From contig JAIZWK010000001.1 of the NCBI GenBank assembly GCA_021498095.1, forward strand, positions 870,001 to 902,000: a stretch of 32,000 bases of DNA, given 5' to 3'. The translations under genes and the position numbers were made by a program. The notes beneath the pieces are model-generated. The model saw only the letters and a list, made by a program, of their open reading frames with translations, searched no databases and had not been told where the DNA came from. The first letter of the stretch is position 1, and each line of letters opens with the position of its first letter. The stretch is from Candidatus Harpocratesius repetitus (GTDB lineage Archaea > Asgardarchaeota > Lokiarchaeia > Sigyniarchaeales > Promethearchaeaceae). Below, piece by piece: positions 3 to 3,000 of the stretch.

Positions 3-3000
3 CCCTTTGGAATTGGTCGAAATGGCCTTATTGCTGGAGCGGGTGCGTCTGCATTTGTTCTAGAAACTCAATCTGAATCAAATAGACGTGGGATTAAGCC
101 AATCGTTGATTTATTAGGAACACAAATAAGCAATAGTGCATATCATGGATCTCGTCTTGATAAACTAGACATTACGGAAGAATTCAATCGTTTTATTACA
201 ACAATGGTTAATCAACACAAAATCACAAAATCTGAAATTGCTCGTAAAGGTATGTTTGTCAGTCATGAAACTTACACACCGGCTCGAGGTGGAAGTTCTG
301 AATCAGAATTGGAAGCATTATCTAATACTTTCGGACCAGATGTGAGTAAATTACTCATTATCAACACCAAAGGATTTACTGGTCATCTTATGGGAGTTGG
401 TATGGAAGAAGCTGTTGCGATAAAATCAATTGAGTACGGGATTATTCCTCCAATTGCAAATTTTGGTAAAATAGATCCAAAATATAGCAAGTTTTACTTC
501 TCAACTGGGATTAAAGAACGAAAAGATTATGCAATTCGGTTTGCTGCAGGTTTTGGATCCCAAATTGCAATTTTAATGTTCCGAAAAAATACACCCACTA
601 ATAGAAAGGATGAAAAAGTGTATCATGCTTGGCTTCAATCTGTTGCAGGTTCAACTTCTCTCTTTTTAGATGGCCGAGTTTTAAAAGTAGACTCAAAACA
701 GCAAATTTCATTCTCACAAAAGCAATCAATTCCATCTATTTTACAAACATCAAAATCAAATGAAACAATTTTAGCCACCTTGATTCAAATTATTGCTGAA
801 AAAACAGGTTATGATATCTCAGATCTTGAACCACAGTACCATTTAGAAGAAGATTTAGGGATTGATACGATTAAACAAGCAGAGATTTTCGGAGAAATTG
901 GAGAGAAATGGAATATTGAGGAAAATCAGTCTTGGAATATTAGTGAAATGCAAAGTATTGCGGATATAGCCAAAGTATTATCGCGAATGGTGAATGACTC
1001 ATCTCAGATTTCATCCCAGACTTCAAGTAATAATCATATTAATCAAAATAATTGGGAAGAAAAAGTCCGGGCAATTATTTCGGAAATTACAGGTTATGAT
1101 CATGAAGATATTCAATTGGATTTTGATTTAGAAGAAGATCTGGGGATTGATACCATAAAACAAGCAGAGATTTTTGGTAGAATTAGAGAAGAATGGCAAA
1201 TTCCTGAAGAGACTAGTATCAATCTTACAGAATTTCGTAGTATTAATGATATTCTTGCCTTTTTATCTAAAAATTTCTCTGGTTCCAGCTCTCAAACTAA
1301 AAATACCATTGATCTAAGTACATCAGAAACAAATATTGACCAACCAACTCAAATCAAAGAAGAGGAGATCAAGAAAATTATATCTGAAGTGACTGGTTAT
1401 GATCTTGAAGATATTCAATCTGATTTTGATTTAGAAGAAGATCTGGGGATTGATACCATAAAACAAGCCGAAATTTTTGGGCGCATTAGAGAAGAATGGC
1501 AAATCTCTGAAGATACTCAAATAAATCTAGCTGATTTTCGAACGATTCAAGATATTTTAACTCTTTTGAATTCAACTAAAAAAGTAAATAATTCAATAGA
1601 TAATAGTGTTGCAACTGTCGATAATTCTCAGATCTCTAAAAGTAATGATAAAAATAGAAGTGAATCCAATATAGATCAAGTTAAATCAATTATTGCAGAA
1701 ATTACAGGTTATGATTCAGAAGATTTGGAACTAGATTTTGATTTAGAGGAAGATCTGGGGATTGATACCATAAAACAAGCGGAAATATTTGGTCAGATTC
1801 GTGAGAAATGGCAAATTTCAGATGAATCTTTGATTAATATCGCTGAATTTCGGACAATAAGAGATATTTTAAATTACATCACAAAAATTAATGAAAGAAA
1901 TCTAAGTTCCCAAGAAATTCCCCAAATTGCGAAATCATCAAATGAAAATAGAACAGTAAACGAAATTATAGAATCACGAATAAAATCGATAATATCAAGA
2001 ATTACTGGATATGATAACGAAGATTTGGAGTTAGATTTTGATTTAGAAGAAGATCTGGGGATTGATACCATAAAACAAGCTGAAATATTTGGCTCTATTA
2101 GAGAAGAATGGCAAATTTCGGAAGAAACTCAAATAAATTTAGCAGAATTCCGAACTATTGGAGATATTGTAAAATACTTAATTCCAATTGTTTCTGATCA
2201 TGATAAATCAGATCAGTTGGATTTTGAAAAGTCTGATTCTTTCCTATCAAGAACTAATGATGAGAATGATCTTGAGAATAAAATTGATGTTAAGATCAAA
2301 ATTTACTCTATTAAACCAGTTTTATTAAATAAAAGTGAAAAAATAGATGAAAACAAAAAGATATTTGAAATTCCCATGGTTTTCATTGAATTTAATTCTT
2401 ATTCTGATTATGGTACAAAAATAAAGGAAGATTTGTCTTCAAAAGGAATCAAACTAATCCCTATATTATTTAAATATGAAACTGGCTTTGAAGGAATCTC
2501 AAGTTTTGTCGATAATATCAAAAAACATGACATAACCAATGGCTACAGCATTTGTTTATATTGTAGACCATTTTCAAAAGAAGAAAATCTCAATCAGGCA
2601 ACTACGCACTTTTCTAACATTTTCAATTTTATTAAATTACTTGGTCCAGAATATATCAAATATGGATTTCTTCTTTCTAAAAATGATAATATCGATGAAT
2701 CTATGATATCAAATCCTATTTCAGCTGCATTTTCAGGATTTTTCAAATCATTGAGTAAAGAAATGTCTTTTAAATTCCTTCATCTTTCCTTCACTACGCC
2801 TCTACTAGTATCTTCCGAAATTTTAAAGGACCACTCTGTGTTTGAAATCCAAATAGATGAACAAGGTAATAGATATACTCTTACTAGAATAAAAATAGGA
2901 AATCAACCATTGAATCAAGCAAGAAAGATTTCTTCAGATGATTTAGTTGTGGTTACTGGAGGTGCAAGGGGAATTACTTTTGAATGTTTAAATAAATTGA

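What the first reader, a model, noticed from the sequence alone, without database searches (positions are those of the whole stretch)
771..2181. All five carrier domains of the megasynthase have Thr instead of the phosphopantetheine-accepting Ser
Seen: every ACP reads D-L-G-I-D-T-I-K-Q-A-E (codons ACG at 867; ACC at 1152, 1455, 1767, 2067). Established: the homologous motif in PfaA-type ACPs is DLGIDSIKRVE, and PPTases attach 4'-phosphopantetheine to that Ser. Five copies with two different codons exclude a sequencing error, and the intact KR, DH and PPTase motifs argue against decay. Inference: this may be a thiotemplate system that loads phosphopantetheine on threonine through its own cis PPTase, with the adjacent KR-V to KQ-A change in helix II as a co-adapted recognition surface. 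I recall GIDT-type ACPs in some uncharacterised bacterial PKS-like proteins, so the variant may be a family-wide trait rather than unique to this genome.
Basis: partly seen in the sequence, partly recalled or inferred. Interest (0 to 1): 0.9.

Follow-up and report, generated by a model that had tools for sequence, protein, structure and literature searches.

The report
Threonine-type acyl carrier domains, Asgard megasynthase
All five carrier domains of a giant fatty-acid/polyketide-type synthase in an Asgard archaeon have threonine where textbook carrier proteins have the serine that holds the phosphopantetheine arm; this is fixed across a very large enzyme family and most likely marks an undescribed threonine-linked form of the cofactor, though nobody has measured it.

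Summary
Observation confirmed exactly: five tandem PP-binding domains (window 747-2201) read D-L-G-I-D-T-I-K-Q-A-E, Thr codons ACG at 867 and ACC at 1152, 1455, 1767, 2067. They belong to one 3795-aa ORF (ER-KS-AT-KS-ACP5-KR-DH-PPTase) on an archaeal chromosome. Thr sits on the Ser of solved ACPs, at the N-terminus of helix II. It is a family trait: of 1125 unique ACP domains collected from relatives, 1080 have Thr, 24 Ser, the rest are visibly degenerate; no other residue occurs. In a sample chosen by the second KS domain, 117 of 132 proteins are all-Thr. Ser variants are single leaves inside at least four Thr clades, and Heimdallarchaeum orthologues carry Ser-Thr-Ser arrays with the same cis PPTase. 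This closed genome has no other carrier domain and no other PPTase. Best reading (0.75): Thr is phosphopantetheinylated by the cis Sfp-type PPTase and the domains work as ordinary carriers. This is inference; no mass measurement exists. The family is the 'Type R' secondary lipid synthase of Shulse and Allen (2011), product unknown; I found no paper that mentions the Thr. This scan has noted the same trait before in other genomes (marine archaea, Acidobacteria).

The parts
3..5474 (+). C-terminal 1823 residues of a 3795-aa megasynthase (whole gene G000:C1:864087-875474 = L003:87-11471; protein P0003). Domain order: ER(NMO)-KS-AT-KS-ACPx5-KR-DH-PPTase.
   Evidence: Pfam.
3..590 (+). C-terminal half of the second ketosynthase (KS2, FabF-like). 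Its Cys lies upstream of the window; both His motifs are in the window.
   Evidence: NCBIfam FabF-type matches to residues 1-196; sequence.
747..1001 (+). ACP1, Thr codon ACG at 867-869.
1032..1280 (+). ACP2, Thr codon ACC at 1152-1154. This domain was modelled: helix II starts at the Thr.
1332..1586 (+). ACP3, Thr codon ACC at 1455-1457.
1653..1901 (+). ACP4, Thr codon ACC at 1767-1769.
1947..2201 (+). ACP5, Thr codon ACC at 2067-2069.
2946..3617 (+). Ketoreductase domain.
   Evidence: Pfam KR 95.6 bits.
3843..4067 (+). N-terminal part of the PKS-type dehydratase, with H-x3-G-x4-P.
   Evidence: Pfam PKS_DH_N 41 bits; sequence.
4800..5345 (+). Cis Sfp-type 4'-phosphopantetheinyl transferase domain (S-I-S-H-S, G-L-D-L-E, W-T-A-K-E-A-F-S-K). 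It is the only PPTase in the genome.
   Evidence: Pfam ACPS 64.2 bits.
5474..6265 (+). Alpha/beta hydrolase, candidate releasing thioesterase. Its start overlaps the synthase stop (TAATG), and AGGAGG lies just upstream.
   Evidence: Pfam; sequence and conservation in L004 and L005.
7484..9631 (-). Biotin carboxyl carrier protein (7484-8038) and biotin carboxylase (8138-9631). With the carboxyltransferase just upstream of the synthase (L002:7434-9008) these give a likely malonyl-CoA supply.
   Evidence: Pfam; linkage conserved in relatives.

Best explanation
The five domains are working acyl carrier domains of an iterative, fully reducing PfaA-like ('Type R' secondary lipid) synthase. Their attachment residue for 4'-phosphopantetheine is threonine instead of serine. 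The Sfp-type PPTase fused to the C-terminus of the same polypeptide takes CoA and transfers phosphopantetheine to the Thr hydroxyl at the N-terminus of helix II of each ACP. The holo domains then receive malonyl from the AT and carry the growing chain to KS1/KS2, KR, DH and the N-terminal ER. The translationally coupled alpha/beta hydrolase probably releases the product. Shown: the sequence, the position of Thr, its conservation, the Ser/Thr exchange pattern, and the absence of any other carrier or PPTase. Inferred: the modification itself, the product and the release step. Why Thr is preferred is unknown. My guesses are insulation from general PPTases and hydrolases, or a phosphodiester less prone to beta-elimination.
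For: (1) Thr occupies the exact Ser position in alignments to solved ACPs and starts helix II in an ACP-fold model. (2) The column holds only hydroxyl residues: 1080 Thr, 24 Ser and no other residue in 1125 unique domains, apart from about 21 domains whose whole motif has decayed or was mis-parsed. No Ser is conserved anywhere else in the domain, at most 20% in any column. (3) Two samplings did not fix the residue. A DNA pattern ending before the site gave 78 of 79 species-representative loci as Thr-type. A search with the KS2 domain alone gave 117 of 132 ACP-bearing proteins as all-Thr, 357 Thr against 17 Ser. (4) Ser and mixed variants are single leaves in four separate well-supported Thr clades. 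Heimdallarchaeum orthologues have Ser-Thr-Ser arrays with one cis PPTase, and two proteins are all-Ser in an otherwise identical motif. So the two residues are interchangeable at this site. (5) In this single-contig genome the only PP-binding matches are these five domains and the only PPTase match is the fused one. (6) The PPTase keeps all Sfp-type catalytic motifs, and a PPTase is fused or adjacent in 44 of 68 determinable loci. (7) KS1, AT, KS2, KR and DH catalytic motifs are intact. Acyl-CoA carboxylase genes flank the synthase here and in 20-25 related loci. (8) A modelled PPTase + CoA + Mg + ACP complex scored ipSAE 0.83 against a best control of 0.15. That mark was reached by 58 of 80 solved complexes and 2 of 110 mismatched pairs. 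The three runs agreed in 100% of contacts and partner pLDDT was 82. The Glu of W-x-x-K-E touches the Thr. PPTase-carrier complexes are solved, so this pass may come from memory and shows likeness only.
Against: No measurement exists: no mass shift, no ejection ion, no labelled protein. E. coli ACP S36T is not modified and not functional, and is used as the standard apo control (PMC3340395), so at least AcpS-type enzymes reject Thr. I found no PPTase residue that distinguishes Thr-serving from Ser-serving enzymes, so there is no visible adaptation of the enzyme. Twenty-four of 68 determinable loci show no PPTase within 2-7 kb downstream. In arrays that mix Ser and Thr, the Ser domains alone could carry the chain.
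Confidence: 0.75

Rival explanations
1. The Thr domains stay unmodified (apo). They act as structural spacers or docking modules, and the catalytic domains work on CoA thioesters or another carrier, in the spirit of the ACP-independent fatty acid synthesis proposed for archaea.
For: E. coli ACP S36T cannot be phosphopantetheinylated. Archaea in general lack ACP and AcpS (my own knowledge). No PPTase adaptation to Thr is visible.
Against: It does not explain why the site accepts only Thr or Ser in 1104 of 1104 intact motifs. It does not explain why the surrounding attachment motif is the most conserved part of the domain. It does not explain why an intact PPTase with no other possible client is kept in this genome. 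Truly decayed ACP-like domains in relatives lose the whole motif, not just the Ser.
Confidence: 0.1
2. The Thr hydroxyl is used, but for a different chemistry. Examples are a different CoA-derived group, a direct O-acyl (oxoester) intermediate, or a regulatory phosphorylation that gates the carrier.
For: The hydroxyl-only column demands a hydroxyl but does not say what is attached. The strict coupling of Thr with Gln at +3 hints at a local chemistry that differs from Ser-type carriers. Gln44 is not in the modelled PPTase interface.
Against: The PPTase has every Sfp-type CoA/Mg and catalytic residue. Ser variants with the ordinary motif occur in the same arrays. KS-type Claisen condensation needs a thioester (established enzymology).
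Confidence: 0.1
3. The gene is a decaying horizontally acquired relic and the Thr codons are inactivating mutations.
For: The family is mainly bacterial and the archaeal copies were probably acquired by transfer (host spread). No RNA data were available.
Against: There is one uninterrupted frame of 3795 codons with all catalytic motifs intact. The five diverged repeats all keep the motif. The same residue is kept in hundreds of species. The neighbourhood is conserved and translationally coupled.
Confidence: 0.03

Closest known systems
'Type R' secondary lipid synthase gene clusters (Shulse and Allen 2011, PLoS One 6:e20146, PMC3098273)
   Same: It is a pfaA homologue with KS-MAT-second KS/CLF-ACP(3-6)-KR, a PPTase gene directly downstream and, in some clusters, an acetyl-CoA carboxylase gene. 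It occurs in Acidobacteria, Elusimicrobia and Chloroflexi and the product is unknown. My hits come from the same phyla.
   Different: Here the ER is fused at the N-terminus and the PPTase at the C-terminus, and the host is an Asgard archaeon. The second KS keeps Cys-His-His, so it is not a chain length factor by sequence. The paper does not mention threonine: the word does not occur in it.
Tandem ACP domains of PUFA synthase PfaA with the PPTase PfaE
   Same: Both have three to six tandem ACPs after KS-AT, followed by KR and DH, with the same helix II motif frame (D-L-G-I-D-x-I-K-x-x-E). Both depend on an Sfp-type PPTase. TIGR02813 matches at 439.7 bits.
   Different: PfaA has Ser and Arg-Val where this family has Thr and Gln-Ala. 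The score is far below the TIGR02813 cut-off of 1010. Here ER, second KS and PPTase sit in the same polypeptide.
Synthases with a PPTase in cis: enediyne PksE (KS-AT-ACP-KR-DH-PPTase) and fungal FAS alpha subunit
   Same: A C-terminal PPTase domain activates the carrier of its own polypeptide. Fungal FAS alpha PPTase domains match the profile of this PPTase.
   Different: By my own knowledge those carriers use Ser. PksE has a single ACP and no ER.
E. coli ACP S36T
   Same: It has the same substitution at the same position.
   Different: It is an engineered mutant that is not modified and not functional in E. coli (PMC3340395), whereas here Thr is the conserved natural state.

Membership tests
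Acyl carrier / PP-binding domain (PF00550) | Profile match above the curated cut-off | tested here: met
   97.5 bits against a cut-off of 20.8. All five domains pass individually in the genome search.
Acyl carrier / PP-binding domain (PF00550) | Helical-bundle ACP fold with the attachment residue at the N-terminus of helix II | tested here: met
   AF2 model has pLDDT 86 and helix II starts at residue 41, the Thr. Foldseek TM is 0.7-0.8 to many ACPs.
Acyl carrier / PP-binding domain (PF00550) | Conserved Ser in the D-S-L type motif as attachment residue | tested here: not met
   All five domains have Thr, as do 1080 of 1125 relatives' domains.
Acyl carrier / PP-binding domain (PF00550) | Covalent 4'-phosphopantetheine | not testable with these tools
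   This needs mass spectrometry of the protein.
'Type R' secondary lipid synthase (Shulse and Allen 2011) | KS-MAT-second KS/CLF-ACP(3-6)-KR order in one pfaA homologue | tested here: met
   The order is KS-AT-KS-ACP5-KR-DH, with extra ER and PPTase fused.
'Type R' secondary lipid synthase (Shulse and Allen 2011) | Dedicated PPTase directly downstream | tested here: met
   It is fused here. It is fused or adjacent in 44 of 68 determinable related loci.
'Type R' secondary lipid synthase (Shulse and Allen 2011) | Grouping with Type R by KS phylogeny, the paper's own criterion | not tested
   The named Type R reference proteins (Koribacter, Solibacter, Elusimicrobium, Roseiflexus) were not in my trees. 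Assignment rests on architecture and on hits from the same phyla.
PfaA, omega-3 PUFA synthase subunit (TIGR02813) | Score above the curated cut-off | tested here: not met
   439.7 bits against a cut-off of 1010.1.
Sfp-type (group II) PPTase | Profile match and catalytic motifs G-x-D-x-E and W-x-x-K-E-x-x-x-K with the upstream S-H | tested here: met
   PF01648 scores 64.2 bits against a cut-off of 25. The motifs are invariant in 23 family PPTases. The best PDB match is Sfp at E 2.4e-21.
Sfp-type (group II) PPTase | Transfer of phosphopantetheine from CoA to a carrier | not testable with these tools
   There is only a docking model.

The most novel reading that the evidence does not exclude
O-(4'-phosphopantetheinyl)-threonine is a natural protein modification. 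It would be used by a whole family of lipid megasynthases present in hundreds of bacterial and archaeal species. In this Asgard archaeon a Thr-type, self-activating synthase would be the cell's only carrier-protein system, giving an archaeon close to the eukaryotic stem an ACP-dependent route to fatty acyl chains.
Probability: 0.7. Interest if true: 0.85.

Novelty: new variant of a known kind. Interest (0 to 1): 0.75.

Why it matters
The serine acceptor is treated as universal for carrier proteins. Motif patterns, annotation pipelines and the standard 'dead ACP' control (Ser to Thr) all rest on it. If Thr is a working acceptor, four things follow:

- A new residue-cofactor linkage enters the catalogue of protein modifications.
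- Tools that call such domains inactive would be wrong for a family found in hundreds of species.
- The PPTases of this family would be candidates for orthogonal protein labelling.
- The unknown lipid product of a widespread synthase becomes approachable, since one ACP plus its PPTase is a small, clean assay.

For archaeal biology, the gene gives Asgard archaea a complete, self-activating fatty-acyl synthase flanked by acyl-CoA carboxylase genes. This bears on whether relatives of the eukaryotic ancestor can make fatty acyl chains.

Tried and rejected
- **Literature.** I searched for the motif strings, for threonine phosphopantetheinylation, for S36T, for Asgard/Lokiarchaeal PKS or ACP, for follow-ups on Type R hosts and for D-S-L motif variants. 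None describes a Thr acceptor. The library lacks most subscription journals, so this does not prove the trait is unpublished.
- **Zeamine PUFA-like Zmn10.** I considered it as a possible characterised member. Its ACP motif is L-G-I-x-S, that is Ser, so I rejected it.
- **D-S-T motif work.** This concerns the residue after the Ser and is not relevant.
- **Expression.** No RNA holder was listed for this stretch, and I did not lay reads.
- **PPTase adaptation.** I compared catalytic and modelled contact positions between PPTases of all-Thr, mixed and all-Ser arrays and found no distinguishing residue.
- **Sequencing error or decay.** Rejected on five diverged copies and family-wide conservation.
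- **Another conserved Ser in the domain as the true acceptor.** Rejected: no column exceeds 20% Ser.
- **Word bias.** The first homologue search shares 5-residue words with the query and could favour Thr-type hits. I therefore repeated the tally with two samplings that do not fix the residue.
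Full report
**The observation**

Window 3-5474 (+) is open from the window edge. Pfam calls the repeats PP-binding (97.5 bits, cut-off 20.8). It also finds KR, PKS_DH_N and an ACPS-type PPTase downstream. The repeats are 41-65% identical to each other in protein, so they are old copies kept separately.

phmmer alignments to solved ACPs place the Thr on the cofactor Ser in every case shown. 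An AlphaFold2 model of ACP2 (pLDDT 86.4) has helix II starting at the Thr, and Foldseek matches it to ACPs at TM 0.7-0.8.

**The whole gene and its setting**

The frame continues 5.9 kb upstream of the window. The full protein (P0003, 3795 residues) reads NMO-type enoyl reductase, KS, AT, a second KS, five ACPs, KR, DH, PPTase.

- Catalytic motifs are visible in the sequence for KS1 (Cys, His, His), AT (G-H-S-L-G and A-F-H), KS2 (Cys, His, His), KR, DH (H-x3-G-x4-P) and the PPTase.
- A carboxyltransferase gene ends 78 nt before the synthase start.
- A biotin carboxyl carrier gene and a biotin carboxylase gene lie just downstream on the other strand, and a biotin ligase gene lies upstream.
- An alpha/beta hydrolase gene starts on the synthase stop (TAATG) behind an AGGAGG.
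- The chromosome is archaeal. The window also encodes the large subunit of DNA polymerase D and an archaeal-type AdoMet synthetase.
- The nearest homologues are named by their sources as Promethearchaeota, Lokiarchaeum, Hodarchaeota and Heimdallarchaeaceae.
- The genome is one contig of 4.36 Mb with 31% G+C.

**Is Thr a family trait?**

In the best 120 homologues, 525 of 529 ACP domains have Thr, and the other four are domains whose motif has decayed or one Ser. That search collects candidates by shared 5-residue words, so it could favour Thr-type proteins. I therefore made two samplings that do not fix the residue.

- A scan of one genome per species used the peptide pattern [DE][LM]E[AE]DLG[IV]D, which stops before the site. 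It returned at least 600 stretches. In the best 79 loci, 78 are Thr-type (266 Thr, 1 Ser).
- A full HMMER search with the KS2 domain alone gave 150 representatives. Of these, 132 carry ACPs: 117 all-Thr, 8 mixed and 7 without Thr (357 Thr, 17 Ser).

Pooled and made unique, 1125 ACP domains give 1080 Thr and 24 Ser. Eighteen domains have no recognisable motif and three were mis-parsed or decayed. No intact motif has any other residue. No other column of the domain holds Ser in more than 20% of sequences.

Hosts include Asgard archaea, Thermoplasmatota, Acidobacteriota, Myxococcales, Chloroflexota, Elusimicrobiota, Actinomycetota (Nonomuraea rosea, an Amycolatopsis), Leptospiraceae and Acetivibrio.

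**Ser and Thr are interchangeable at this site**

On a tree of the KS2 domain (104 rows), the three all-Ser proteins and the one mixed protein are single leaves in four different clades. Each of these clades has at least 99% SH-aLRT support and is otherwise all-Thr, so the fewest changes is four. The tree is a quick search and the root is not inferred, so I count switches, not their direction.

The mixed protein is the sister of this window's protein and its closest relative. Its cluster members are named Candidatus Heimdallarchaeum aukensis and endolithica. Full-length orthologues (P0269, P0274, P0292) have the same ER-to-PPTase architecture and a Ser-Thr-Ser array. Two further proteins (P0138, a Heimdallarchaeota archaeon; P0241) are all-Ser in an otherwise identical motif, and both keep a fused PPTase. 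Clostridium sp. DSM 8431 has D-L-G-I-D-S-V-K-Q-G-E in a synthase followed by carboxylase genes.

From an ACC codon, only two of the six non-synonymous single-base changes give Ser. Yet every replacement seen in an intact motif is Ser. A site that tolerates only hydroxyl residues, in the place where the cofactor is attached in all studied carriers, is most simply the attachment site.

**No alternative carrier or enzyme in this genome**

A six-frame search of the whole genome with PF00550 at E up to 1 finds only the five Thr domains. A search with PF01648 finds only the fused PPTase. The PPTase has no other conceivable client.

**The PPTase**

Twenty-three PPTases of the family, fused or encoded next door, share invariant G-x-D-x-E, W-x-x-K-E-x-x-x-K and the S-H of S-I-S-H-S. 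Their profile matches Sfp best (E 2.4e-21).

- A PPTase is fused in 57 of 120 homologues.
- Among 68 loci where the end of the synthase gene can be seen, it is fused in 6 and directly downstream in 38. It was not found within 2-7 kb in 24, many of them Actinomycetota.
- PPTases that serve all-Ser, mixed and all-Thr arrays do not differ at catalytic or modelled contact positions.

A modelled complex of the PPTase domain, CoA, Mg and ACP2 scored ipSAE 0.83 against 0.15 for the best control. That mark was reached by 58 of 80 solved complexes and 2 of 110 mismatched pairs. All three runs agreed in 100% of contacts and partner pLDDT was 82. The Glu of W-x-x-K-E touches the Thr. Complexes of Sfp, AcpS and the human enzyme with carriers are solved, so this pass may come from memory. 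It shows that the pair looks like a normal PPTase-carrier pair, not that Thr is modified.

**Helix II**

Thr is followed by Val/Ile-Lys-Gln in about 1075 of 1080 domains. With Ser, the Gln is kept in only 10 of 24 and is replaced by Ala, Val, Ile, Met, Ser or Thr. The Heimdallarchaeum arrays show this within one protein: S-I-K-A, T-V-K-Q, S-I-K-I.

The sequences are related, though, so the counts overstate independent events. Gln44 is also not among the residues that touch the PPTase in the model. Its partner may be the cofactor phosphate, the Thr itself or another domain. This is open.

**What is known**

The architecture and the host phyla match the 'Type R' secondary lipid synthase clusters of Shulse and Allen 2011 (PMC3098273). 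These are a pfaA homologue with KS-MAT-CLF-ACP(3-6)-KR and a PPTase gene downstream, sometimes with an acetyl-CoA carboxylase gene. They occur in Koribacter, Solibacter, Elusimicrobium and Roseiflexus, and the product is unknown.

- That paper does not contain the word threonine.
- I did not place the named Type R proteins in a tree, so membership rests on architecture.
- PfaA proper is excluded as a family: TIGR02813 scores 439.7 bits against a cut-off of 1010.
- E. coli ACP S36T is not modified and not functional (PMC3340395). This is the nearest thing in print, and it points the other way for AcpS-type enzymes.
- Nine literature searches found no report of phosphopantetheine on threonine. 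The library misses most subscription journals.

**Earlier notes of this scan**

After I had reached the above, a look-up showed that the same trait had been noted and followed up in other genomes (marine Group II archaea, an acidobacterium). Those notes give the same reading and the same closest known family.

This report adds the following:

- the Asgard case with a genome-wide absence of any other carrier or PPTase;
- the Ser/Thr switch analysis, with Ser-Thr-Ser arrays in Heimdallarchaeum;
- the Thr-Gln coupling;
- the negative result on PPTase adaptation.

**Verdict**

The most likely explanation is a Thr-linked phosphopantetheine installed by the dedicated PPTase (0.75). The rivals are unmodified domains (0.1), another modification of the hydroxyl (0.1) and decay (0.03). 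Everything about the modification itself is inference, and a single mass spectrum would decide it.

Noticed in passing
L003:5150-6700 and window 3-590 (P0003 residues about 1690-2215): The second ketosynthase, which Shulse and Allen call a chain length factor in Type R clusters, keeps the active-site Cys and both His here. So the protein seems to hold two competent ketosynthases around one AT.
   Followed up: partly
window 5461-6265: The synthase stop and the alpha/beta hydrolase start overlap (TAATG) behind an AGGAGG. The hydrolase, the biotin carrier protein and the biotin carboxylase are conserved downstream of the synthase in two other archaeal loci (L004, L005). It is a likely releasing thioesterase, but no thioesterase family was matched.
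   Followed up: partly
L002:7434-9008, window 7484-9631, and loci L014-L080: Acyl-CoA carboxylase genes accompany the Thr-type synthase widely. A biotin carboxylase occurs in 25 and a carboxyltransferase in 20 of 79 related loci, which suggests a self-contained malonyl-CoA supply.
   Followed up: partly
P0007, P0019, P0129, P0132, P0136, P0138 (homologues): Some relatives carry one extra ACP-like domain whose whole attachment motif has decayed (for example D-L-G-L-S-E-H or D-L-G-V-K-D-A), next to intact Thr domains. This shows what real loss of function looks like in this family.
   Followed up: no
P0088, P0116, P0049, P0106, P0036 (bacterial homologues): A subgroup, named Myxococcales or Deltaproteobacteria where named, has one additional Thr-type ACP about 700 residues upstream of the tandem array, before the second KS.
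   Followed up: no
cluster of P0124: In Candidatus Heimdallarchaeum aukensis the cluster holds pieces of 2711, 1506 and 171 residues (the last a PPTase) from one 3.08-Mb contig. The orthologue may be split or frameshifted there.
   Followed up: no
window 12551-14554 (-) and 20430-21692 (+): Two long ORFs (667 and 420 residues) have no Pfam match at E 1e-4.
   Followed up: no
   Followed up: no
window 25115-28840 (-), 17808-19040 (-): DNA polymerase D large subunit and archaeal-type AdoMet synthetase confirm an archaeal chromosome around a synthase of bacterial type.
   Followed up: yes
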